IMG/VR virus record: IMGVR_UViG_3300021962_000061
Location: 25,598 to 89,597 of that record
Direction: 5' to 3' (one strand)
Source of the DNA: a virus
Length of the DNA: 64,000 nucleotides
In this document: in pieces, positions 3,554 to 64,000 of the stretch
Layout of the letters: each line of letters begins with the position of its first letter
Numbering within the stretch: position 1 is the first letter of the stretch
The notes under the pieces: generated by a model
Databases searched by the model: none
Seen by the model: only the letters and a program-made list of their open reading frames with translations
What the model was told of the DNA's origin: nothing
Translations under genes and position numbers: made by a program

Positions 3554-5253
3554 ACCTGAACCGCAATAACTCTTAGATCGTTGATTTTTGGGTATAGATG
3601 TTCTTTGCCACTATCAGCAGTCATAACAATTTTCACTGCAAACTTTTTAATGACTCTATCATATCCATAACCACCATATGATGGACCACCTGTTGTTCCC
3701 CCTGTTGAATTTGCCGAGTAGTAGACTACAGGAACTGAATTGTTTGATTGATATGCAGCAAATGCATTGCCAGCTAATGCAGCTGTGTTGGCAAATGAAT
3801 ATGAATACTCTAGGTACTCATCTGGGGCATTTGTGTTTCTTGCTTTATTTGGATCTTCCAATGCCATCTTTGACCATACTTTATCATCAAACTTATCAGG
3901 GTCAGCGGCATTCCATATTTTTGTATAAACGTGAATTTCTGTATTTGCTGGCTTATTAACAGTGATGAAGATTTTTAGATCTTCAGCTTCCATCTCATCC
4001 TCAAGTGTTATAACCTTTGATATATACTTGGCATCAGCACTACCAGCGTTTGTGTGCTCGTTTGTTAAGTTATTATTAATTAAATTTCGAATAGCCACCA
4101 AACTATTTTTACCATTCAAGTTAATAACAGGCGAAATGAAATTACTATTAGTTGTTAGTGTTGCTTGAATTACAATAGATGAGTTAGATGATGGTGTGCC
4201 TGTTCTGAAGTCATTTCCTGCATTCTGTTCGTCGGTTTCTCCCAACAAATATCTAGGCTGATCTTTATATTCCAACTCAATATTGTTTTCTAGTGTAGCA
4301 CCAGTGTCTTGAACGTACTTAGTGCCATTATACACCGCACTCTTAACATTGAGCGAGATATTAGTTAGGGGTAGTTTCTTAATACCAAGTTTTGGAGCAA
4401 TTGCATGTATTGGGAACTTGTACAGGCCACTATTGGCAGTATTATGGACTCTTGCCAATCCTAAAATACCCGATCCATTAGCTGTTGGAGCTGACTCATC
4501 TGCTGTTCTCACAAATGCAATATCAGTATTTGCTTGGAAGTTTGCAGATGAATTCTTCAAATACAAAATTTTGTTAACAAGATCTAAGTTTTGTACAGTG
4601 GCTGAGATAGCTGTGTTTACAGCATTGTTTGACCAGCCATACACTTGATCCCCTGATCTGATATCATACTTACCTAACAACGATGAGAAATTATACAGCT
4701 TTAGGATTTCTGTATTTTTATTTCTTAGTGCTGCTGTTCCAGAGGTTGGTGTGAATTTAGCTCTATACAATCTAAATTTAATATCTTGGTTTACAAGATC
4801 AGCATATTTTTCTTCGTTGCCTGAGAAGTATGCTGTACCAACTAATGGATTTGAACCAATTGGTTTATCATCAGCTATATCACGCTTGCCTAGTTCCCCA
4901 ACCCAAATATTGTAATCTGGTGAATTACCAATTGGTCTAACGACAAATCCGTAGCTTTCTGCGGAATCAAGATATACTAACTGATTAAAGGTAAACAATG
5001 TTTCTGATGTACCATCAACAGAAGTTGTAATATTTTCAGGGTCAACAATAATAGTGGACCCAGCAATTGCCTTGCTAGGATCTGGAATACCATTTGTAAG
5101 TCTGACTAGGAAAAGTTCTACACCCAGTGAGTCTGACTTGTTTTTGAAAAACAAACCTAATTTTGAAACAAATACACCTGGAACACCATCTGGTGTTGAC
5201 ACTTTGAATGTTTGTGTTAAACTAGTGTATTTAATGTTTAATGAACTAGGCAT
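3550..5253 (-). CDS. virion structural protein (resembles C-terminal part of VrlC/DUF4815-like proteins)
   Basis: LTQTF..GVFVSKLGLFF, DIKFRLYRAKF, ISPVIN, AKYISKVITL, FAVKIVM...P.I.DLRVIA motifs. Confidence 0.7.
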   Translation of the reverse strand: MPSSLNIKYTSLTQTFKVSTPDGVPGVFVSKLGLFFKNKSDSLGVELFLVRLTNGIPDPSKAIAGSTIIVDPENITTSVDGTSETLFTFNQLVYLDSAESYGFVVRPIGNSPDYNIWVGELGKRDIADDKPIGSNPLVGTAYFSGNEEKYADLVNQDIKFRLYRAKFTPTSGTAALRNKNTEILKLYNFSSLLGKYDIRSGDQVYGWSNNAVNTAISATVQNLDLVNKILYLKNSSANFQANTDIAFVRTADESAPTANGSGILGLARVHNTANSGLYKFPIHAIAPKLGIKKLPLTNISLNVKSAVYNGTKYVQDTGATLENNIELEYKDQPRYLLGETDEQNAGNDFRTGTPSSNSSIVIQATLTTNSNFISPVINLNGKNSLVAIRNLINNNLTNEHTNAGSADAKYISKVITLEDEMEAEDLKIFITVNKPANTEIHVYTKIWNAADPDKFDDKVWSKMALEDPNKARNTNAPDEYLEYSYSFANTAALAGNAFAAYQSNNSVPVVYYSANSTGGTTGGPSYGGYGYDRVIKKFAVKIVMTADSGKEHLYPKINDLRVIAVQV

Positions 5254-8200: not shown

Positions 8201-11100
8201 TTAGTAACAGGTGGGTTAACTGTAGCTGTTGTAAATTCAGCTGTTAGGTTAGCTGTATTTGATTTGTATGGTCGGAAGTCAATTACATCTCTTAGATCAT
8301 AGCTTGTATTTGCTGTAGAAGAGAAGTACTTTGGAATTTCCCATGTTCTGATATACAAACTTGCATTAGCATTTAATGTGTCGTTTGCTGGATAAGAATC
8401 AACAGAGAAGAAACCTTCACCAGTTGTAGCATTTACAACAAAGCAATCAAATTCAACCAACATATGGACGTTAGCTAAACTGCCAAGACCTGACAATGGG
8501 TTGATCGATAGGGTTGCATGGTCATAATGGGTATCATTTTGGCCATCATTTAGTGCAAACTTATTAACCTGGTTTTGTAAGATATTAAAGTTGGATGAAT
8601 TAGTGCCAAAATATACACCTGTTAGGTTGAATACATCCGGTATACCTAAATTCCACGGACCAGTTTCTCCACCAGCATTATTTGCTGTATTAATAATTAC
8701 AACTCTCTTTCTATTAACATCCTTCTTCAATTCGCTTGCTTCATTATTGTAGGCATAGAATCTTACAGCTACATTAGAAGTACCAACATATGTGGAGCCT
8801 AGATTAATTGTTGCTGTTTCTCTATTAACAGCTACTGACAATGATCTCTTTGAACCAGCTGAAGTGTTAAGAGCAATATGTGATCCTTCTACATGTATTC
8901 TTCTATATGTGTTTGCCACTGCTGTTACGGCAGAATCTACAGTCATTGTTGTTGCGTCTGTAATTGCAGTGATTCTTCTTGTTTGGCTTGCACCAATAAA
9001 TTCAATATATTCACCTACAACAAAGTCTTCATTAAATGTTGTTGTAGTACCTGTAATAATATTAGTTGCGGATGCTGCAACTGTGCCTGCTAAGTTGGCA
9101 GACGAAGCATTTGCATCTAACAAGACTACATCTGCTAGTAGTTTAGAAGAATCAGAACCGTCACTGAAGCCAACGATGCCCTTCAATGCGCCAATACCAA
9201 ATGTTATAGTGCCACCGGAAATTAACTGGGCAGTTGTATTTGCTGCTGTATAGAAATAATTAGTATCAAACACGTTGTTTGAATTTCTCAGATTTTTTAC
9301 AGCACGAGCATTCAGATTAAATAGCAGTTGTGGTACAGATGATTCCTTAACGACAGCTAGGCTGTTATCTAGAACAATGTCGGCAAATGCCTCTGTGTTA
9401 GTTGAGTTTGCGGTACCACTGTGGTAAACAATTGATCTAATGTCCTGTGGATTAGATCCATTATTCATTCTGATATTAAACAAATACAATCTATACTGGG
9501 AAGTTGGTTTGCCTTTTGTGCTATCAAATGTGTCGTTAAACTTAACAGCTCTCACATTAGCGTAGCCAATGATTGAACCTGTTGCAGCGGCACCAGGAGA
9601 TCTATTTCCTGACACAGCATCTTGAGCTGCTGAGTATAAGACCACCTCTGTTGATTGGTTGACAGGGAAATAACCCCTAACCTCATCCACAACATAATAA
9701 TTACCATACGATACAGTAATTAATGCTTCATTTACAGATAATGTATCTGTGCCTCTTCTACCAACAACATTAAGGTTGTCTAGCAATTCAATTCTCTTAC
9801 CCTTGACATAGGCAAGACCTTGTGTCACTTCATATACCATATTATTGGTGCTAGTGAAGTCTGGTTTTGTTGTTACACTAAATGGTTTGATTACATAATG
9901 GCCTGATTCTTCGTATGTTCTTTTAGCTAGTTCTTCACCCAGTGTGTTGAACTGAGTATCTGTTCTTTGGAACACAGGTCCATTATTTGAAAATTCTACA
10001 ATTGGGAATGCAATATCAGTGTTTGAAATTGTATTTGCGCCAGTCTTATTACGCGAAATCAACGTTGATGTTAGCTTTAGTCTATGAGCACCGGGTGCAT
10101 TGATATTTGGTGTACCAGAAGCATTGTCATATAAGGAGCTGTCTGTTGTTTCTTTTACAATTTCTTCACTAGTATTAAAATATAATACCTTACCAGCAGG
10201 ATCTCTTCCATTTTCATTGACGATAGTCAAATGTGACTCAACTTTAATAAAATGACCTTTGTGGAAAACAATACCAGGGCTAACAGCTACACCATAAGCA
10301 AACCCTTTTGAGTCATAAAGGGATGCGTTTGTAGCTAAGACTTGAACTGAGTCAATAAATGAGTTAGAGTATGGGATTAAATTAATACTGTCAATTGTTG
10401 CTGAAATATTTGTGTCTGTTGATACAACTACTGTTTCACCAGCTGCAAATTTCTTTCTTACATTTCTTAATTCAACAAAGGAGCCGGAACCATTAGCGTA
10501 TGCATTAACAATAAAACCACGTGCAAGTGATGTTTGGTTAATAATTCTTGCGCCAGTTGGAAAATTCAAGCTATTAGCTGTTGAAGCAGAAGTTATCTTC
10601 AAAACAGTCTTATCAATGTAGGTCTTGCCAGGTATGTAAATATTTAAATATTCACCTTCAGCAAATGTTCTTTCGTTGTTGCTACCTGGTTGCGTATACT
10701 TAACAAAAAATCTAGCAGGATTTGCTGTTGCTGAAAACCCCTCTCTTGCAGCAACAATTTGTGCTACAACACCAGTAGTATTACCAACAGCAATGGCATT
10801 AACAAACTGAGTGTTTGTGGATGATAGTGATGTATTTGTAACAAACTGATCAGCAATTGAAACAAAATCAATATCTGGAAGATAGGAAATACCACATCCT
10901 TTAATAATTGTGCCATCTTTAAAGATGTGCTGGCCAAATCTCTCAATTTGATTTTGTAGAATTGATTGAGCTTGGTTTAGTTCACGAGCTTGGACGGCAA
11001 CGGATGGTCGGAATAGAATTCTGTGGAAATTCTTATTCTCATTGTAATCATCAAAATACGGGGACGCATTTAATGTTGTATTTGCTATGTCAAGGGCCAT
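5278..11100 (-). CDS. large virion structural protein, VrlC/DUF4815-like
   Basis: PYFDDY...HRILFRP..AVQARELNQ.QSILQNQ, PGAHRLK, FTMRDI..LE.RI..LEYYT.L.LLE, RF.NGFFVDPF. Confidence 0.8.
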   Translation of the reverse strand: MALDIANTTLNASPYFDDYNENKNFHRILFRPSVAVQARELNQAQSILQNQIERFGQHIFKDGTIIKGCGISYLPDIDFVSIADQFVTNTSLSSTNTQFVNAIAVGNTTGVVAQIVAAREGFSATANPARFFVKYTQPGSNNERTFAEGEYLNIYIPGKTYIDKTVLKITSASTANSLNFPTGARIINQTSLARGFIVNAYANGSGSFVELRNVRKKFAAGETVVVSTDTNISATIDSINLIPYSNSFIDSVQVLATNASLYDSKGFAYGVAVSPGIVFHKGHFIKVESHLTIVNENGRDPAGKVLYFNTSEEIVKETTDSSLYDNASGTPNINAPGAHRLKLTSTLISRNKTGANTISNTDIAFPIVEFSNNGPVFQRTDTQFNTLGEELAKRTYEESGHYVIKPFSVTTKPDFTSTNNMVYEVTQGLAYVKGKRIELLDNLNVVGRRGTDTLSVNEALITVSYGNYYVVDEVRGYFPVNQSTEVVLYSAAQDAVSGNRSPGAAATGSIIGYANVRAVKFNDTFDSTKGKPTSQYRLYLFNIRMNNGSNPQDIRSIVYHSGTANSTNTEAFADIVLDNSLAVVKESSVPQLLFNLNARAVKNLRNSNNVFDTNYFYTAANTTAQLISGGTITFGIGALKGIVGFSDGSDSSKLLADVVLLDANASSANLAGTVAASATNIITGTTTTFNEDFVVGEYIEFIGASQTRRITAITDATTMTVDSAVTAVANTYRRIHVEGSHIALNTSAGSKRSLSVAVNRETATINLGSTYVGTSNVAVRFYAYNNEASELKKDVNRKRVVIINTANNAGGETGPWNLGIPDVFNLTGVYFGTNSSNFNILQNQVNKFALNDGQNDTHYDHATLSINPLSGLGSLANVHMLVEFDCFVVNATTGEGFFSVDSYPANDTLNANASLYIRTWEIPKYFSSTANTSYDLRDVIDFRPYKSNTANLTAEFTTATVNPPVTNTFNSNTTNYNPFPTSVLSSNFTYYLGRKDRLVLTSDKLFQVEEGLPDVAPRLSPMNSDVLNIAEVDIPPYPSLTDAEKQFVNKPKFHYITQLNLLTHKRFTMRDISILEQRIERLEYYTTLNLLEKVALQTTIADSSGNQRFQNGFFVDPFNSHVFGRTEDPDYRAAIDEKNGLLRPPFHPEIVDVEFDTNTNSYSNVQATGSMITLAYTEEVFLEQPNASEPLNVSGVPLSWAGTIDLRPLKSTRVDYLAPPAAVTGTNGPSLAYNNMNSGQNSIVPGIAQYGFWRLNIDPTDYMYIGGAGDLFQYRDTSGKAFNEIRDQTSTPIATSKQIDLNDVLGDNDNVTMSPSVLYQAKESVFAFKAYGLKPNTTHYLFIDNQYNLTSQAALGELSSTPNAQDETFVTRTTPWGTPLVSDSRGEIIGKFILPAATIKVGVHKLTLVNRESLAAGSDESIAQTFFTIDISANDPPKNPGNPQPGNTTPSSNLFAHYTFTGNTTITSVVTNGITANGTFVLTFTDDSYTNQGTITSYSWNFGAVPGLITCSSNTATGVGPHTISFDTLNSVEDVIVSLAITTSAGATREFAKQIRLTKLLQTGGIAAPGTPTNPEGMLLRLIPSLFDDYSDLKAYGDWSQYTTDIGLGLAVDTLPYNMLTYNAGLSLGSNTTLKILAQPAIDYQGNVVWTVTTQSGDPLPAISYANITQVYVTAGGSNYSNSDTIQFSNGQVDGYASIQTNTTGGIVLVKVTGRGNFTDGTITTPDSFVANSTSNNDFTLSTTSTNTSIQVAINGVLQIGGTDYWVDSGTTLKLINNGDTANTANAAVSDVVYVEYTNVVPGTTIKPVNQIRIRVSNSSVLANSTSNTSAGSGASFLVITGLTSNSIASSPRVENDILTLYSNNTFGAETKVLVKADFYLSNGYANSIGNTSQVFTLKNANTASSSTTTNNTIVVGGGDRSGSLPYSKNSDLRVNLRNV

Positions 11101-39747: not shown

Positions 39748-39823
39748 TGGTGGGCCCAGTAGGATTCGAACCTACAGTCAAAGGATTATGAGTCCTCTGC
39801 ATTAACCGTTATGCTATAGGCCC
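39748..39823 (-). tRNA. tRNA-CAT (probably Ile2, lysidine type)
   Basis: cloverleaf GGGCCTA...TGGGCCC-A-CCA, anticodon arm GAGGA-CTCATAA-TCCTT; Ile2 versus Met is inference. Confidence 0.9.
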
Positions 39824-50394: not shown

Positions 50395-50478
50395 TGGTGC
50401 GAGAGAAGAGATTCGAACTCTTAAACCTTTCGGTACTAGTTCCTAAGACTAGCGCGTATACCGTTCCGCCACTCTCGC
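50395..50478 (-). tRNA. tRNA-Leu(TAG)
   Basis: cloverleaf with long variable arm, CTAGT-CTTAGGA-ACTAG, CCA encoded. Confidence 0.93.
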
Positions 50479-55643: not shown

Positions 55644-55702
55644 AAAAAACAGCCATCGCTGTGCGACAAACCTTACACCGAAAGGTAGGGCGGCTGGCTG
55701 CT
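55644..55702 (-). ncRNA. candidate small structured RNA or terminator-like element
   Basis: CAGCCA/TGGCTG closing stem with two internal hairpins and a T6 run, directly after TATAAATA. Confidence 0.35.
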
Positions 55703-59015: not shown

Positions 59016-59576
59016 TTAAATAACTGGTATCAGCGACATCGAGTCGCTTGGTCCAAATGCTGTATTTGTAACATCAAACCCTATTGTAATTCTATGACCA
59101 TCATATGGTTCAACAACTTGAACTTTATGTCGTCTGTTACCAGGACCAATGTATATGTTGCCTATATCGTTTTCAATTTCGTAATTATCGAAAACTGTTT
59201 TGGTTCTTTTTGGATCTACTGAGATGTATCCATGAATGTACCAACTATGGTTGTGCCATTTGAGAACCTGATCTTGTCTATGGACATTTAACCACGACTG
59301 AAACCAAAGGTACTCGTCTGTAGGAGCAGTAATTTTAATCGCATCCAATAAGTCTTTATATAAATCAGTGAAGTATGAGCGTGGACCAACCAAGGAAAAT
59401 ATGTTGTATGTTTTGTATAGCCACGTACTATCTTTACTCACACTACCATACGTCTTAATTAAGAGCTTGTGTGCCGCACTAAGATCACGCAGCATCTCTT
59501 GCTGATGTTTTAAAATAACATCAGATCTGTAGATCCTATATCCACATTCGGTGTTATCTTCAATGAGTGAAAGCAT
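59016..59576 (-). CDS. 2OG-Fe(II) oxygenase/cupin-like phage protein
   Basis: QSWLNVH.....L.WHNH, HGY..V, HKV, RITIGFD; ATG 59576 with AGGAG. Confidence 0.6.
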   Translation of the reverse strand: MLSLIEDNTECGYRIYRSDVILKHQQEMLRDLSAAHKLLIKTYGSVSKDSTWLYKTYNIFSLVGPRSYFTDLYKDLLDAIKITAPTDEYLWFQSWLNVHRQDQVLKWHNHSWYIHGYISVDPKRTKTVFDNYEIENDIGNIYIGPGNRRHKVQVVEPYDGHRITIGFDVTNTAFGPSDSMSLIPVI

Positions 59577-59588
59577 ATCTTCTCCTAA

Positions 59589-59720
59589 TGGTGGAAGGTG
59601 TAAGGCAACACTTTCCAATGAAAGGAGGACTCATGTTGGCCAAGGCCTTTTTCGTGCTTGGCGCCGCGAGTCCACCGGCCTTTGCCCCACTTGCCCACCT
59701 CCATGGAGGCAGTACGAGGC
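59589..59720 (-). ncRNA. candidate structured RNA ending in a CCA-tailed minihelix
   Basis: GC-rich island with GGACTC/GAGTCC and GCCAAG/CTTGGC stems, then GGAAAGTGT-loop-ACACCTTCC-ACCA. Confidence 0.45.
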
Positions 59721-59724
59721 TATA

Positions 59725-59800
59725 TGGTACCCGGTGACGGGATCGAACCGCCGACAGTCGCCGTGTAAAGGCGGCGCTCTACCAGCTGAGCTAACCGGGC
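59725..59800 (-). tRNA. tRNA-Val(TAC)
   Basis: CGCC-TTTACAC-GGCG, CCA. Confidence 0.92.
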
Positions 59801-59808
59801 ATTCAAAA

Positions 59809-59894
59809 TGGTGGGAAAGGAAGGATTCGAACCTACTCAGCCTAAGGCGACAGATTTACAGTCTGTTGTGACTCTCCAACTTCACCGCTTGCCC
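59809..59894 (-). tRNA. tRNA-Tyr(GTA)
   Basis: long variable arm, ACAGA-CTGTAAA-TCTGT. Confidence 0.92.
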
Positions 59895-59907
59895 ACATAA
59901 ACTTTAA

Positions 59908-59981
59908 TGGCTGAGGAGCATGGATTCGAACCACGATAAGCAGGATCAAAACCTGCTGTCCTGCCGTTAGACGACTCCTCA
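59908..59981 (-). tRNA. tRNA-Gln(TTG)
   Basis: T1-A72, GCAGG-TTTTGAT-CCTGC, G73-CCA. Confidence 0.92.
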
Positions 59982-59987
59982 AAATAA

Positions 59988-60215
59988 GATGCTCATGTAT
60001 CTCTCACACTTCCACACATCTCTGATTTTTCAATCATGATAGACTCGGGTGATTTTCAGATTTTGTATCGCGAGTACAAAACCAGCGATACATGAGCAAC
60101 AGAGAAGGATGGGATAGTTGGGTTTGCTCACTCCAGGCATCCGGTGGAGGCTATACATTACTGCTAGCCACATCCTAAAGACAGCCGACACGTACATTGC
60201 TGCAGAGGTGTCGGG
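59988..60215 (-). ncRNA. candidate structured RNA(s) between tRNA-Ala and tRNA-Gln
   Basis: 12-bp TGCTCATGTATC/GATACATGAGCA stem; AGGATG/CATCCT junction; CCGACAC/GTGTCGG hairpin; GCAA and GTAA tetraloops. Confidence 0.5.
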
Positions 60216-60222
60216 CATATTT

Positions 60223-60298
60223 TGGTGGAGATGGACGGGATCGAACCGACGACATCCAGCTTGCAAAGCTGGCGCTCTCCCAACTGAGCTACATCCCC
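60223..60298 (-). tRNA. tRNA-Ala(TGC)
   Basis: G3:T70 pair, CCAGC-TTTGCAA-GCTGG. Confidence 0.94.
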
Positions 60299-60302
60299 AA
60301 AT

Positions 60303-60456
60303 AAGGCGTGGGCTACCATTCAAGGTTCGTTCTTAGACCTTACCCCCACGCAATAAGGCTGCATTCCGTTAGCTCTCATAATTCATATAGTGCTACCCAT
60401 ACGGACAAACTCTCACACTATAGGGGTGTACCCGTCAGACATGCCTGCAGGTCACC
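60303..60456 (-). ncRNA. candidate structured RNA(s) between tRNA-Asn and tRNA-Ala
   Basis: CTGCA/TGCAG and TATAGTG/CACTATA stems, then GCGTGGG/CCCACGC with inner AAGGT/ACCTT. Confidence 0.4.
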
Positions 60457-60460
60457 AAGA

Positions 60461-60535
60461 TGGCTGGCGAGGTAGGGATCGAACCTACGACAGAGTGATT
60501 AACAGTCACTTGATCTACCACTGATCTACTCGCCA
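60461..60535 (-). tRNA. tRNA-Asn(GTT)
   Basis: AGTGA-CTGTTAA-TCACT, G73-CCA. Confidence 0.92.
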
Positions 60536-60548
60536 ATAAAATATGATA

Positions 60549-60625
60549 TGGCGACTCGGATGGGGCTCGAACCCACGACCTCATGCGTGACAGGCATGTG
60601 AACTAACCAACTGTTCTACCGAGCC
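60549..60625 (-). tRNA. tRNA-Asp(GTC)
   Basis: CATGC-CTGTCAC-GCATG, G73-CCA. Confidence 0.93.
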
Positions 60626-60630
60626 AGAAA

Positions 60631-60706
60631 TGGTGGACCGTGTAGGGATCGAACCTACGACCTGTTGATTAAGAGTCAAATGCTCTACCAGCTGAGCTAA
60701 CGATCC
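60631..60706 (-). tRNA. tRNA-Lys(CTT)
   Basis: TTGA-CTCTTAA-TCAA, CCA. Confidence 0.92.
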
Positions 60707-60713
60707 ATAATAA

Positions 60714-60996
60714 ATGCCGGTTACTAATCCGGCGTCACACTATGCTCCGTGGTGACAGTCGACGCTGCTATGATAACAGATAGCAGTCTGTTATAGGTCC
60801 ACGCTTTTCACTGCTACAACAACAAACAGTTCGGGCCGGTACAATATGGCCTACCTACAACGAGGAGGTGGTGGGACACCCAGTTAATAAGGTCGCTGTT
60901 AAGCCGTCCTGAACGGAAGCCGAGCATGACACTCCAGTCGGTCTAGAAAGATGTTTAGACTAAATGCCGACAGGTCGCGAAGCACCTAATTGGAAT
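60714..60996 (-). ncRNA. candidate ~280-nt multi-domain structured RNA heading the tRNA operon
   Basis: no ORF; many nested stems and a predicted H-type pseudoknot; sits between boxA and the first tRNA. Confidence 0.55.
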
Positions 60997-61001
60997 TCGT
61001 G

Positions 61002-61013
61002 TTTTTAAAGAGC
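61002..61013 (-). promoter_or_regulatory. boxA-like antitermination element
   Basis: GCTCTTTAAAAA versus rrn boxA TGCTCTTTAACA, ~35 nt downstream of the -10 box. Confidence 0.65.
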
Positions 61014-61047
61014 TGAACAAGAGCACAATGTCTTATCCAGGGCTAGC

Positions 61048-61076
61048 ATTATCTGCTAGTTTAATATGTATGTCAA
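61048..61076 (-). promoter_or_regulatory. sigma70-like promoter of the tRNA/ncRNA operon
   Basis: TTGACA-17-GATAAT. Confidence 0.7.
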
Positions 61077-61942
61077 CAGCCTCGAAAACAAGTTTGCTTA
61101 GCTAACTTTTGCCAATTGGCATAATCCATCTTCATCAACGTGGCCAACTTAATGACCATTCGAAGAGAGAGTTCACGGAGATTATCCATGTTCTTCTCTA
61201 CGAAGTCCACGATCGTAGACTCGTCGACCAATGTCAAACCCTTATCACGGAGCATCCCTAACGCAACGACTTGCTTGATACGAACGACGTAGTCCATCTT
61301 CGTCTTCATAGCCAAGTCGAGGTAATGAGACCTCGAGACAAGCGCCTCAAAGTGAGGAGCAAGTCTTGAACCACGAGCAATGAGATCATCAAAGTCGTAG
61401 TTCGTGATAAAGATCACCGAACCTTCGAACTCGAAACTGTTAGGAATCGGTTCGCCATCTTCATCTTCGATCTTATCAATAGATCGTGACAACCAATGAA
61501 GTTTGCGAGTGTCAGTAGAGTCACACGCGCTCTTCAACAAGTTCATTGACACGTCATCTGCGAAGATCGAATCCGAATCGTCGAATACAAGCACGCTGTG
61601 AGCGAAACGAGCTTCATATAACAATCGGTAGAGCGAGAGAGGACGAACATAACCCTTGATGTAGGTCACATGGTGACCCTGATCTTCGAGTTCCTTCATC
61701 TTCTGCTCAACCGTATACGACTTACCAAGACCAGCAGGTCCAGATACAATCAGAGCACGGTTGATGCCCTTACCTGTTGCCTCAGTGAGAACCTCAAGAG
61801 CGTTGAAACGATCCTTGAGCTTCTCCTCGATCTGCTCTACTGACTCTATACTCTTAGTAAGTGTAAGAGTCGGCATCACAGTACCTTGCTTCCGACGATT
61901 CTTAGTCATTCGGAAACCCTTCTTTGGAACGCCTCTAGGCAT
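61073..61942 (-). CDS. P-loop (AAA-type) ATPase conserved in T4-like phages
   Basis: IVSGPAGLGKS Walker A, LVFDDSD Walker B, F.GSVIFITN, H..AL.SR; ATG 61942 with GAGG. Confidence 0.8.
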   Translation of the reverse strand: MPRGVPKKGFRMTKNRRKQGTVMPTLTLTKSIESVEQIEEKLKDRFNALEVLTEATGKGINRALIVSGPAGLGKSYTVEQKMKELEDQGHHVTYIKGYVRPLSLYRLLYEARFAHSVLVFDDSDSIFADDVSMNLLKSACDSTDTRKLHWLSRSIDKIEDEDGEPIPNSFEFEGSVIFITNYDFDDLIARGSRLAPHFEALVSRSHYLDLAMKTKMDYVVRIKQVVALGMLRDKGLTLVDESTIVDFVEKNMDNLRELSLRMVIKLATLMKMDYANWQKLAKQTCFRGC

Positions 61943-61974
61943 TCGATACCTCATTCATCTCAAACATGACGCGC

Positions 61975-62245
61975 ACTATACGCACATTGGCCAGACATAG
62001 CAACACGTAGAATCAAGGGGTTACAAAATTGACCATAACCTCTTGATTTTCAACGAGTTATAACTTGTTGATTTTACTGGGGAATTTGAGAGCACATTTT
62101 GACGTGTATATACGAAAATTGAGCTAGTAGTACGCCAATGATACACAACTACACCTTCTAGACGACCTCGAAACGTGTAACCCATTGATTCTGAAGGAAA
62201 ACGTGTTTTCTTCATCCAAAAACACGGCGTTGTAACTTATTGATT
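61975..62245 (-). promoter_or_regulatory. repeated early promoter copy 3 with an extended IHF-site array
   Basis: TTGCTA-17-TATAGT; IHF matches at 62011-62023, 62036-62048, 62048-62060 (1 mismatch), 62061-62073, 62178-62190, 62233-62245. Confidence 0.7.
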
Positions 62246-62434
62246 ATAGTAAGGATTTTCAGTGCGTAGGAATTGCTCGACCAATCGCTCAGCATATCGG
62301 ATGTCGCAACACCGTATTCTGTCTTCAGTTCTAAGAGTCTTATCCGTAAGAACACAAATGATGTTCTCAGGACCGTCAACAACCAGTTCAGCAACTTTAT
62401 TGTTAAATGCTATTGATCGGTAAACTAGACTCAT
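62237..62434 (-). CDS. hypothetical protein
   Basis: 65-aa ORF with GGAG RBS overlapping the carbamoyltransferase 3' end. Confidence 0.45.
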   Translation of the reverse strand: MSLVYRSIAFNNKVAELVVDGPENIICVLTDKTLRTEDRIRCCDIRYAERLVEQFLRTENPYYNQ

Positions 62435-63623
62435 TGTTGTACTGCTCCACTAACTTATAAAGTTTGTCCTTGGTCTCTACTATACTATATTCAGGACCAA
62501 GATACAAGGTGTCAATATTTTTAAATTTAGTATTTGGAAATTTATGTTTGTAGTGATATAGAGCAGCACCTAGTGCTTGGGATGCATCACACGCGATTGG
62601 TTCAATGAACACATTGAGATGTGGAAATGTCTTCTTGATTATTGAGTTTCCGAGAATGTTTAATGCACACCCACCACCTAACACCAGGTTGTTAGATGGA
62701 TTCAAATCTAGAGCCTGCTGTACTCTCTTTATAAAAATATCTTCCAAAGCTCTTTGAATATTATAGGCTAAATCTTTTTTAATCTCATCAGACGGATCAA
62801 TAAGAACAGGATTAGTTATTGTATCCACTTGACTATCATTTCTAAAGAAATTAGCATCCGAATGAGTTGTGCCTGGTATCAGCATAGGAGGAAGATTGTT
62901 AGGTTTACCGTAAGCTGAGAGGCCCATTGTTTTGCCAGCTTCATTAGAAGAAGGAAACCCTATATGTCTTGTTATTGTTCCATACATCTTGCCAATATCT
63001 ACATGCGATGATATTTGTACTGGATATTTAAAGAATTGTTTAGCATTTTGTGTTTTCGTATATGACCATCCAGTTAGTCCAAGGCCATGCTGCATATAAA
63101 ACAAATGTTTAAACAATGTTCTGAGATTTTGGTCAGCTTTGAAAATTGTTGTCGTTTCAGATAGATTGCAATCTGCCCAAACCCAGCCTGTTCCTACACC
63201 ATCAATTATGATGCAGTTTGCTTCTTCGAATCCTGATTGATAAAAGCCAGCAGCAGCATGGTATAAGTGGTGGTTGCTATTGTCGACAACAATTTGGCCA
63301 GTTTGTATTTTGGCCTTTTGCAGCATTTTTGTTAGTAGCATAACGTGAGTCGATACAGCAAACCCATTAACATTAGGCTCATGTTTTACATAAGCTGGAG
63401 AGTTTGGATTATTATTGTTATCTCTTACGTTGACTAGAACAACTAAATTAACTTTGTTTGTATATTTCTTAATGTGTTCTATATCATGTTGTTGTATTTT
63501 ACATGTGTGCTTTTGTCTAGTTGTTCTCTCACATGGATAGGCAAATAACACTTTACTATCTTCAAGTAGACAGATGCATGAATCGTGACTAGAAGATGAA
63601 AGTGCTAATGTGTAAAAACTCAT
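62403..63623 (-). CDS. carbamoyltransferase N-terminal (Kae1-like) domain, CmcH/NodU family
   Basis: SHDS, ER.TR.KH, HHLYHAA.GFY.SGF, IDGVG, AGKTMGLSAYG, LGGGCALN, D...A.GAA, LYLGP. Confidence 0.88.
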   Translation of the reverse strand: MSFYTLALSSSSHDSCICLLEDSKVLFAYPCERTTRQKHTCKIQQHDIEHIKKYTNKVNLVVLVNVRDNNNNPNSPAYVKHEPNVNGFAVSTHVMLLTKMLQKAKIQTGQIVVDNSNHHLYHAAAGFYQSGFEEANCIIIDGVGTGWVWADCNLSETTTIFKADQNLRTLFKHLFYMQHGLGLTGWSYTKTQNAKQFFKYPVQISSHVDIGKMYGTITRHIGFPSSNEAGKTMGLSAYGKPNNLPPMLIPGTTHSDANFFRNDSQVDTITNPVLIDPSDEIKKDLAYNIQRALEDIFIKRVQQALDLNPSNNLVLGGGCALNILGNSIIKKTFPHLNVFIEPIACDASQALGAALYHYKHKFPNTKFKNIDTLYLGPEYSIVETKDKLYKLVEQYNNESSLPINSI

Positions 63624-64000
63624 TTACTAACAACAACCTGCAACTCAGGGAGGTATAGGTAATCAATTCTAGACTTTGCAAATGTTTTGAATGTATCTTC
63701 TATAGTTTCCACCAACGGTTCACCAGCAAGATTCAATGATGTATTCAATACCATTGGTACCCCTGTCAAGTTGTAAAATGCTTTAATTAGGTTGTAGTAG
63801 TGATAATTTTGCTGTTCTGTTACCGTTTGTATTCTACACGACCCATCGACATGAATAACACAAGGTATAATATGCTTCTTGTCTTCTTTGCACGTAAATG
63901 AAAATGTCATGTATGGTGATTCTGGCAATCCAAGCATATCGAACCACTGATTAGCATACTCTAGCATCATTGATGCAGCTAGAGGTCTAAAGTATTCTCT
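63620..64000 (-). CDS. carbamoyltransferase C-terminal (YrdC-like) domain, 5' part outside window
   Basis: RP.AASMM, ESPYM, HVDGSCRIQTV, TGVPMVLNTS.NLAGEPLVET. Confidence 0.88.
   Translation of the reverse strand, partial: REYFRPLAASMMLEYANQWFDMLGLPESPYMTFSFTCKEDKKHIIPCVIHVDGSCRIQTVTEQQNYHYYNLIKAFYNLTGVPMVLNTSLNLAGEPLVETIEDTFKTFAKSRIDYLYLPELQVVVSK

What the first reader, a model, noticed from the sequence alone, without database searches (positions are those of the whole stretch)
60714..60996. Unrecognised ~280-nt structured RNA with a pseudoknot at the head of the tRNA operon
Seen (minus strand): an ORF-free, GC-richer block. A 5' three-way junction (TCCA/TGGA) encloses AGGT/ACCT and GTCGG-GTCTA/TAGAC-CCGAC. 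A main domain closed by ATGCTC/GAGCAT contains CCGT/ACGG and an AACAG/CTGTT multiloop. The hairpin ATAACAGA-[CTGCTA]-TCTGTTAT is followed 2 nt later by TAGCAG, exactly complementary to its loop (H-type pseudoknot). A terminal GCCGG/CCGGC hairpin ends just before tRNA-Lys. It lacks tmRNA, RNase P and SRP signatures. Established: T4 has stable non-tRNA RNAs in its tRNA cluster, and GOLLD/ROOL RNAs are tRNA-associated in phages. Inference: a stable phage RNA, possibly a new class.
Basis: partly seen in the sequence, partly recalled or inferred. Interest (0 to 1): 0.72.

Follow-up and report, generated by a model that had tools for sequence, protein, structure and literature searches.

The report
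Modular RNA leader of phage tRNA operon
The stretch is a real, conserved, non-coding leader in front of a T4-like phage's tRNA genes, but it is several separable RNA pieces, not one large RNA, and one 85-base piece with a small pseudoknot looks like a new phage RNA motif.

Summary
The block 60707-61045 (minus strand) is ORF-free and matches no Rfam 15 family. It is conserved in 9 full and 2 partial distinct variants from aquatic phage contigs.

It is not one ~280-nt RNA. A tRNA-Leu gene is inserted inside it in 4 of the 9 full variants. One metagenome contig lacks its first ~100 nt.

From 5' to 3' it reads:
- a near-consensus sigma-70 promoter
- a hairpin
- an exact match to the published boxA consensus GYTCTTTAANA
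- two clade-specific hairpin modules, M1 and M2
- module M3 (60795-60712)

M3 recurs alone in distant relatives, giving 18 distinct sequences. It usually fills the gap between two tRNAs. Once it follows an ORF with no tRNA nearby.

My best reading is an rrn-style antitermination leader followed by processed small RNAs, analogous to but not homologous with T4 rnaC and rnaD. No discrete transcript is shown.

This scan has already noted boxA-led phage tRNA arrays on other DNA.

The parts
61048..61076 (-). Sigma-70-type promoter: TTGACA (61076-61071), 17-nt spacer, GATAAT (53-48). It overlaps the stop codon of the ATPase gene. The inferred start of the RNA is about 61044-61041.
   Evidence: best site in 59500-62500, 11 of 12 matches. 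It is conserved in all 9 full variants; the -10 is TATAAT in 3 of them (L030, L036, L039). The transcription start is inferred, not shown.
61013..61040 (-). Leader hairpin CUGGAUAAGA/UCUUGUUCAG, in the position of an rrn boxB hairpin.
   Evidence: L032 has a hairpin of different sequence (AGUCGAGU/ACUCGACU) at the same place (read by eye).
61003..61013 (-). boxA-like element GCUCUUUAAAA.
   Evidence: It matches GYTCTTTAANA (PMC5725501, passage read) exactly. It is the only match in the window (0.48 expected) and in the 89.6-kb contig (the reversed control also gives 1). Among the 9 full variants plus the partial L043, 7 of 10 match and 3 (L033, L036, L039) differ at position 4.
60899..61001 (-). 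Module M1: hairpins AGGUGC..GCgACCU (60987-60972), GUCGG/CCGAC with a tip of variable length (60971-60937), GAGUG/AUGCU C-type hairpin (60934-60922), and GGCU..GGCU.
   Evidence: Only the GAGUG hairpin covaries (G-U, G-C, A-U). M1 is absent from L043. Model R3 finds it in no distant relative.
60796..60898 (-). Module M2: hairpins GGGUG/CACCU (60881-60866), GGCC/GGCC (60851-60834) and ACUG/CAGU with a U/G-rich loop (60830-60810), ending in GUGGACC.
   Evidence: There are compensatory changes in GGCC/GGCC (L032: GACU/AGUC) and in ACUG/CAGU (ACCG/CGGU). Model R2 finds it in no distant relative.
60765..60791 (-). M3 pseudoknot: S1 CAG (60790-60788) with CUG (60779-60777), L1 A60787, S2 CUGCUAU (60786-60780) with AUAGCAG (60771-60765), L3 60776-60772.
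   Evidence: 18 distinct sequences. S1 is 100% paired, with A-U changed to U-A in 3. S2 is 100% paired, and 3 of its 7 pairs show changes on both sides.
60734..60756 (-). M3 hairpin H2: GUCAC/GUGAC with a conserved 13-nt loop.
   Evidence: 98.9% paired, with no covariation because the stem is invariant. The two extra inner pairs of the RNAalifold model fail in 7 and 4 of 18 sequences.
60716..60733 (-). M3 hairpin H3: GCCGG/CCGGC with loop AUUAGUAA, followed by the A/U-rich tail 60715-60707.
   Evidence: C-G in 8 sequences against U-A in 10. flags it as terminator-like (5 pairs, tail ATTTATTATG).
60631..60706 (-). tRNA-Lys(ctt), the first of the 23 tRNA genes of the window.

Best explanation
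The interval is the untranslated head of the phage's polycistronic tRNA transcript. It is a chain of separable RNA modules, not one RNA.

Host sigma-70 RNA polymerase starts at a near-consensus promoter (61076-61048). The nascent RNA first forms a hairpin and then exposes a boxA element (61013-61003). By analogy with rRNA operons, boxA loads NusB/S10 and the other Nus factors. This would make the polymerase resistant to termination across the roughly 10-kb (to tRNA-Leu at 50395) to 21-kb (to tRNA-Met at 39748), hairpin-rich tRNA array. This step is inferred.

Two clade-specific sets of hairpins follow (M1, M2). Then comes M3, an autonomous module of about 85 nt. M3 is a compact H-type pseudoknot (S1 3 bp, L1 1 nt, S2 7 bp, L3 5-7 nt) followed by two 5-bp hairpins.

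M3 usually fills the whole gap between two tRNAs. RNase P cutting at the next tRNA's 5' end, together with 3' trimming of the preceding tRNA, would therefore release it as a small stable RNA. This is how T4's rnaC and rnaD lie in their tRNA cluster. That step is also inferred.

What M3 does once released is unknown. Its invariant loops suggest that it binds a protein or another RNA.
For: Promoter: 11 of 12 matches.

boxA:
- It matches the published consensus exactly.
- It is the only match in the window and in the contig.
- It lies about 30-40 nt after the inferred start, directly after a hairpin whose sequence differs in L032 while the hairpin itself is kept.

Modularity:
- tRNA-Leu(tag) is inserted between M2 and M3 in L033, L036, L039 and L047.
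- L043 lacks M1.
- The M3 model R1 scores 62-85 bits in distant relatives.
- Models R2 and R3 find nothing there, including a genome rated 100% complete.

M3 structure: 99.7% of 360 cells are paired. Five pairs show changes on both sides; 2 of 500 shuffles reach that. The covariation score is 0.169 against 0.081 for shuffles (0 of 500 reach it). Slid controls pair 19-53%.

M3 neighbours, 19 copies:
- A tRNA starts within 2 nt of the model's end in 15 copies: Glu in 13, Lys in 2.
- A tRNA ends within 2 nt of the model's start in 7 copies.
- The upstream neighbour varies: M2, tRNA-Leu, tRNA-Thr, or other spacers.
- In L065, M3 follows an ORF stop and no tRNA is nearby.

Non-coding.

Phage type: the ATPase next door has relatives in 1310 phage records, led by T4-like Straboviridae.

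T4 comparison: rnaD and rnaC abut tRNA-Arg.
Against: - No RNA ends are known. In two metatranscriptome runs, contigs of relatives cover the block at depth about 11, but one runs on into the ATPase gene. This could be read-through or DNA carry-over.
- The single-sequence fold is not better than shuffles.
- The family is narrow: 16 IMG/VR contigs besides the window's own, plus metagenome contigs.
- Substitutions are few. The S1 change sits in three related sequences and may be a single event.
- Alignment A6 was fitted to a model that contains S2, H2 and H3 (though not S1).
- boxA: one match per 89.6 kb is about what chance gives (0.48 expected in the window; the reversed control gives 1). Only its position argues for it. 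Three of 10 variants change position 4, and a C4T/T6C double mutant abolishes SuhB recruitment at the suhB boxA in E. coli (passage).
- No boxA was seen at the tRNA arrays of the distant relatives examined.
- The host is unknown, so its own boxA could not be compared.
- M1 and M2 are only a little more conserved (84-97%) than the ATPase gene (82-85%).
Confidence: 0.6

Rival explanations
1. One reading: a single ~280-330-nt structured RNA with long-range closing helices. It would function as one molecule, a new large RNA class comparable to GOLLD or ROOL.
For: The modules are contiguous and co-conserved in 5 of the 9 full variants. RNAalifold proposes one long-range pairing, UCCA with UGGA of GUGGACC, enclosing M1 and M2.
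Against: The ATGCTC/GAGCAT and AACAG/CTGTT helices fail in homologs. A tRNA gene splits the block in 4 of 9 variants. L043 lacks M1. M3 occurs alone in distant relatives. The UCCA/UGGA pairing never varies, and its 5' strand is missing in L043.
Confidence: 0.08
2. The block is only a precursor spacer. The hairpins merely keep neighbouring tRNAs from misfolding and present sites for RNase P, RNase E and RNase III, and the pieces are degraded after processing with no function of their own.
For: M3 abuts tRNAs. A/U-rich single-stranded linkers lie between the modules. M1 and M2 are barely more conserved than the flanking gene. Other structured spacers are noted in the same array (earlier notes e1-6125742 and e1-6125743, not tested here).
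Against: The unpaired loops of M3 are nearly invariant across relatives whose ATPase is only 67-72% identical in protein. M3 keeps its sequence while its neighbours change. It also occurs away from any tRNA in L065. L060 carries two copies.
Confidence: 0.2
3. M3 is a cis-acting attenuator or riboswitch-like element. The pseudoknot and H2 would sense a ligand or protein, and H3 with its U-rich tail would be a conditional terminator that gates the downstream tRNAs.
For: H3 plus its tail is flagged as terminator-like. L057 has a run of six U after H3. The conserved loops and junctions resemble those of an aptamer.
Against: The stem has only 5 bp with an 8-nt loop. The U run is interrupted in most copies and absent in L065. 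I found no alternative antiterminator pairing by eye. No riboswitch family matches in Rfam.
Confidence: 0.07
4. The conservation reflects a DNA-level or repeat-derived element. For example, the M1 hairpin could be a copy of a host REP-like palindrome or a protein-binding DNA site.
For: 21 nt of the M1 hairpin (AGGTGCTTCGCGACCTGTCGG) are identical to a dispersed palindromic repeat of five Bacteroidota MAGs. These carry 1-7 copies per genome within 2 mismatches, and the reversed control gives 0.
Against: It is single-copy in the window. About one exact 20-mer hit is expected by chance in 596 Gb (my estimate), and 7 of the 12 hits lie in unrelated GC-rich DNA that looks coding by eye. The phage promoter is of the TTGACA/TATAAT type, which from recall is not the Bacteroidota type. 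Strand-specific G-U pairs and covariation elsewhere in the block point to RNA.
Confidence: 0.03

Closest known systems
Phage T4 small stable RNAs rnaC (species 1) and rnaD (species 2)
   Same: They are non-tRNA RNAs inside the tRNA cluster of a T4-type phage, directly abutting a tRNA (T4: tRNA-Arg, rnaD 1 nt later, rnaC 6 nt later). Their function remains unknown (PMC9697503, passage read).
   Different: The M3 model finds no similarity. Its best hit in the T4 region is 9.8 bits and lies outside rnaC and rnaD; a 3.5-bit partial hit lies in rnaD. The T4 RNAs end in tRNA-like parts: a T-arm-like GGGTTCGAATCCC in rnaC and a CCA end in rnaD (read by eye). M3 has neither, and it has a 5' pseudoknot.
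Bacterial rrn operon leader (boxB hairpin, boxA, boxC) and the Nus-factor antitermination complex
   Same: The order is strong promoter, hairpin, then a boxA that matches GYTCTTTAANA exactly. It heads a long untranslated array of structured RNAs. The elements are named in the abstract of PMC10250234 (search listing).
   Different: It stands in a phage and before tRNAs only. No boxC was identified. No leader-trailer helix was found. Three variants deviate at boxA position 4. Nus binding is untested.
GOLLD and ROOL RNAs
   Same: Association with phage tRNA genes (from recall).
   Different: No Rfam 15 family of any kind matches the block at gathering score or at E<=10. The block falls apart into modules of about 85-105 nt, whereas those RNAs are several hundred nt long (from recall).
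COG2908 RNA (Rfam RF02939)
   Same: It is another short structured RNA in the same array. It sits between tRNA-Met and tRNA-Thr in the window (55651-55695, 71.8 bits) and occurs in 4 of the 4 close-relative loci searched.
   Different: It is a different sequence and structure, and a catalogued family. M1, M2 and M3 are not catalogued.

Membership tests
Any Rfam 15 family (including tmRNA, RNase P, SRP, 6S, riboswitches, self-cleaving ribozymes, GOLLD, ROOL) | A covariance-model score at or above the family's gathering score. | tested here: not met
   (window): 23 tRNA matches and COG2908 only. (60600-61200, E<=10): nothing credible in 60707-61072. (8 relatives' loci, 89 kb): tRNA and COG2908 only. 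ARAGORN finds no tmRNA.
rrn-type boxA antitermination leader | A boxA sequence matching the consensus GYTCTTTAANA. | tested here: met
   GCTCTTTAAAA at 61013-61003, against the consensus from PMC5725501. Seven of 10 variants match; 3 differ at position 4.
rrn-type boxA antitermination leader | Placement in the nascent RNA shortly after a strong promoter, next to a hairpin (boxB-boxA order). | tested here: met
   Promoter at 61076-61048, hairpin at 61040-61013, boxA directly after it. The rrn order of the elements is from recall.
rrn-type boxA antitermination leader | Binding of NusB/S10 and read-through of terminators, with identity to the host's own rrn boxA. | not testable with these tools
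H-type RNA pseudoknot (M3, 5' part) | Two helices, the second made from the loop of the first and downstream sequence, both supported across homologs. | tested here: met
   S1 is 100% paired with A-U changed to U-A in 3 of 18 sequences. S2 is 100% paired with 3 covarying pairs. The S1 support may come from a single event.
H-type RNA pseudoknot (M3, 5' part) | Loop lengths that can span the helices. | tested here: inconclusive
L1 is 1 nt over a 7-bp S2, L2 is 0, and L3 is 5-7 nt over a 3-4-bp S1. This fits the rules for classical pseudoknots as I recall them. No 3D test was made.
T4 rnaC / rnaD | Similarity of sequence and structure to the T4 RNAs. | tested here: not met
   Model R1 with filters off on the T4 region: no hit on rnaC, and a 3.5-bit partial hit on rnaD. 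Blastn of the block against 50,697 phage records gave no match.
T4 rnaC / rnaD | A position inside a T4-type phage tRNA cluster, abutting tRNAs. | tested here: met
Intrinsic terminator (H3 plus tail) | A G+C-rich stem followed by a run of U. | tested here: inconclusive
   flags 60733-60716 with its tail. The stem has only 5 bp, the U run is interrupted, and the run is absent in L065.
tRNA or tRNA-like element | A cloverleaf with T-arm and acceptor stem. | tested here: not met
   ARAGORN and the Rfam tRNA model give no hit in 60707-61045.

The most novel reading that the evidence does not exclude
M3 is a new class of phage small RNA. It is a compact 5' pseudoknot plus two hairpins with invariant loops, cut out of tRNA arrays by the host's tRNA-processing enzymes, and it acts in trans. 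It might act as a decoy or binding partner for a host or phage protein that handles tRNAs, such as a defence nuclease, or as an aptamer. Its presence away from any tRNA in L065 would mean its function does not depend on tRNA processing.
Probability: 0.2. Interest if true: 0.7.

Novelty: new variant of a known kind. Interest (0 to 1): 0.45.

Why it matters
Large phages carry long tRNA arrays. How these arrays are transcribed, and what the non-tRNA RNAs inside them do, has been open since T4's species 1 and 2 RNAs were found.

This locus adds two things. First, it is a further case of a phage tRNA array headed by an rRNA-operon-type boxA, a hypothesis that can be tested in E. coli-type systems. 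This scan has already noted such cases on other DNA. Second, it defines a small candidate RNA motif (M3) with covariation support and a pseudoknot. At about 85 nt it is short enough for direct probing, binding and structural work.

The analysis also shows that a plausible-looking 280-nt fold read from a single sequence was mostly not conserved.

Tried and rejected
Searches that found nothing or only chance matches:
- Blastn (distant mode) of the block against cultured phages gave no match.
- An exact 30-mer covering the hairpin and pseudoknot gave 0 hits in IMG/VR.
- A looser H2 pattern in IMG/VR returned 82 stretches. Model R1 found no M3 in any of the 65 new loci among them.
- In the metagenome scan, 6 of 17 loci were chance matches in unrelated coding DNA.
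- The M3 motif gave 0 hits in 185,579 species genomes.
- R1, R2 and R3 were run on ATPase-linked relatives L007-L029 (R1 only) and on whole records. M1 and M2 were not found, although only 5 records were searched with each model.

Other tests:
About 0.1 and 1.8 are expected by my own estimate, and both lie inside ORFs. Rejected.
- A small protein: the 37-aa ORF loses its start codon in homologs. Rejected.
- RNA runs: all runs are Logan contigs. Parts of the block without cover in X15 and X19 say nothing. No starts or ends can be read.
- Host as Bacteroidota, from the 21-nt repeat match: left open and judged unlikely.

Supplementary Table 2 of PMC5725501 (boxA positions) could bear on whether G or A at position 4 is tolerated. 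A search for COG2908 found two papers, and their listing suggested no relevance to the RNA motif. That boxA before phage tRNA arrays is not in print rests only on the searches, which listed no such paper.

Full report
What is there. The window is part of an 89.6-kb IMG/VR virus record rated 53% complete. On the minus strand an ATPase gene (61954..61073) is followed by 366 non-coding bases and then by tRNA-Lys(ctt) (60706..60631). This is the first of the window's 23 tRNA genes. The ATPase has relatives below 60% identity in 1310 phage records, led by T4-like Straboviridae such as Citrobacter phage Moon, where it is annotated 'T4-like'. From recall I take it to be the T4 NrdC.11 type. The phage is therefore an uncultured aquatic T4-like phage. 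DNA runs holding the stretch are estuary, marine, lagoon and lake metagenomes.

Checking the observation. The block has no ORF above 37 aa. No Rfam 15 family matches at gathering score, and none matches credibly at E<=10. As a single sequence, however, it folds no better than shuffles (z = -0.84), and its G+C content is only marginally raised. Everything therefore depends on homologs.

Homologs.
- A protein-anchored search with the ATPase returned 28 IMG/VR loci. Only the five closest carry the block and a tRNA array behind the gene.
- DNA patterns from the block found 7 IMG/VR contigs.
- In the single metagenome scan, 17 loci were returned, of which 11 are real and 6 are chance matches.
- After removing duplicates there are 9 full and 2 partial variants.

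- The closing helix ATGCTC/GAGCAT is broken in 6 cells with no compensation.
- CCGT/ACGG pairs 66.7% of cells.
- In AACAG/CTGTT the A-U pair is kept in 1 of 9 variants.
- The 8-bp hairpin pairs 56.9%; only CAG/CUG is constant.
- Four variants carry a complete tRNA-Leu(tag) gene between the two strands of the supposed main domain.
- Contig L043 joins the boxA region directly to the second third of the block, so it lacks about 100 nt.

A single 280-nt RNA is therefore not supported. A model made only of local hairpins pairs 99.3% of cells and has 5 pairs with changes on both sides (0 of 500 shuffles reach that). That model was derived from these same sequences.

The best sigma-70 site in 59500-62500 is TTGACA-17-GATAAT at 61076-61048, with 11 of 12 matches. 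It is followed by a 10-bp hairpin (61040-61013). In L032 this hairpin is replaced by one of different sequence.

Directly after the hairpin comes GCTCTTTAAAA (61013-61003). I first recognised this from memory as boxA (note). I then checked it against the consensus GYTCTTTAANA, derived for gamma-proteobacteria in PMC5725501 (passages read). It matches exactly. It is the only match in the window (0.48 expected) and in the whole contig (the reversed control also gives 1). The count alone is what chance gives, so the argument rests on position and on conservation.

Seven of 10 variants match the consensus, and three have G or A at position 4. In E. coli a C4T/T6C double mutant of the suhB boxA abolishes SuhB recruitment (same paper), so this variation counts against the reading. 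The distant relatives' arrays that I inspected showed no strict boxA. Earlier notes of this scan report boxA-led phage tRNA arrays on other DNA. I did not use them as support. My two literature searches listed no paper on this.

M3.
- A covariance model of the last 91 nt (R1) found single copies at 78-81 bits in the whole records of three relatives whose ATPase is only 67-72% identical. These copies lie several kb from that gene, inside tRNA arrays.
- A degenerate pattern then found 15 IMG/VR contigs, 6 of them new.
- I gave 18 sources to the model, leaving out duplicates and second loci of the same contigs. This yielded 19 copies and 18 distinct sequences, with L060 holding two copies.

With the pseudoknot written in, 99.7% of 360 cells pair:
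- S2 (CUGCUAC/GUAGCAG) has three covarying pairs; L065 reads CCGAUAC/GUAUCGG.
- H3 splits into 8 C-G against 10 U-A.
- S1 (CAG/CUG) becomes CUG/CAG in L057, L064 and L065.
- H2 never varies.
- Slid controls pair 19-53%.

Its form is S1 of 3-4 bp, L1 of 1 nt, S2 of 7 bp and L3 of 5-7 nt. The window-specific 8-bp hairpin is not part of the conserved structure.

Caveats apply. The alignment was fitted to a model holding S2, H2 and H3. The S1 change may be a single event. The family is narrow: a looser scan gave 65 further loci and none contained M3, and a scan of genomes gave none.

M3 in context. In 15 of 19 copies a tRNA begins within 2 nt of the model's end (Glu in 13, Lys in 2). In 7 copies a tRNA ends within 2 nt of its start; an eighth, L047, is shown by the alignment. 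M3 thus often fills a tRNA-to-tRNA gap exactly. In L065 it instead follows an ORF stop codon. There it is followed by an RNA of about 105 nt closed by a 16-bp stem and then by a strong terminator, with no tRNA in the 9.4-kb locus. M3 is therefore an autonomous module.

M1 and M2. Models R2 and R3 find these modules only in the close clade. Their hairpins show a few compensatory changes. They are only slightly more conserved than the neighbouring gene.

The 21-nt core of the first M1 hairpin is identical to a dispersed palindromic repeat in five Bacteroidota MAGs. I cannot tell chance from meaning here. The promoter type argues, from recall, against a Bacteroidota host.

Expression. Only Logan contigs were available. 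Two metatranscriptome runs from different studies hold contigs of tRNA-Leu-bearing relatives across the block at depth about 11. One of them continues into the ATPase gene. This shows presence in RNA libraries and nothing more.

Comparison with known RNAs. T4's rnaD and rnaC abut tRNA-Arg, and their function is still called unknown (PMC9697503, passage). R1 does not match them, and they have tRNA-like 3' parts that M3 lacks. The same array also holds a catalogued short RNA, COG2908.

Verdict. The block is best read as an rrn-style leader followed by separable small RNAs. Of these, M3 is a candidate new motif. What M3 does after release is not known.

Noticed in passing
window 55651-55695 (-); L030 13723-13767, L031 3887-3931, L032 8322-8366, L033 3935-3979: The Rfam family COG2908 RNA (RF02939, typed 'Cis-reg') sits between tRNA-Met and tRNA-Thr inside the phage tRNA array at 71.8 bits (gathering score 58.7). 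It recurs in 4 of the 4 close-relative loci searched and in 0 of the 4 distant-relative loci. A cis-regulatory label fits poorly with a position flanked by tRNAs.
   Followed up: partly
L030 about 10569-10710 (+): Between tRNA-Glu and tRNA-Lys lies a stretch of about 125-140 nt. Read by eye, it has a 7-bp acceptor-like stem, a T-arm-like GGGTTCGAATCCC and a CCA end, but a large insert. Neither ARAGORN nor the Rfam tRNA model called it.
   Followed up: no
L065 5507-5760 (+): The most divergent M3 copy directly follows an ORF stop codon. After it come an RNA of about 105 nt closed by a perfect 16-bp stem and a strong intrinsic terminator. Rfam finds no tRNA in the 9.4-kb locus.
   Followed up: partly
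L060 1082-1173 and 1328-1419 (-): Two M3 copies lie in tandem, with starts 246 nt apart, on one IMG/VR contig.
   Followed up: no
L142, L143, L145, L148, L149 (Bacteroidota MAG contigs); window 60987-60967: A dispersed imperfect palindrome of Bacteroidota genomes has a 21-nt core identical to the first M1 hairpin of the phage. There are 1-7 copies per genome within 2 mismatches, and the reversed control gives 0. No Rfam family covers it.
   Followed up: partly
L030, minus strand, about 4568-4578 in + coordinates: A second TTGACA promoter-like site, a hairpin and a strict boxA match (GCTCTTTAATA) lie on the opposite strand, about 5.5 kb from the tRNA-operon leader of this close relative. The window has no second boxA.
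   Followed up: no
window 62403-64000 (-): An ORF end with a carbamoyltransferase C-terminal domain (63970..63620, running off the window) is followed, with a 4-base overlap, by an ORF with only the N-terminal domain (63623..62403). No C-terminal domain follows that second ORF.
   Followed up: no
window 60831-60819 and 54818-54806 (-): A 13-nt perfect complementarity links the U/G-rich hairpin of M2 to a site inside an ORF 6 kb downstream on the same strand. About 0.1 is expected by my estimate. The sequence is low in complexity, so this is probably chance.
   Followed up: no
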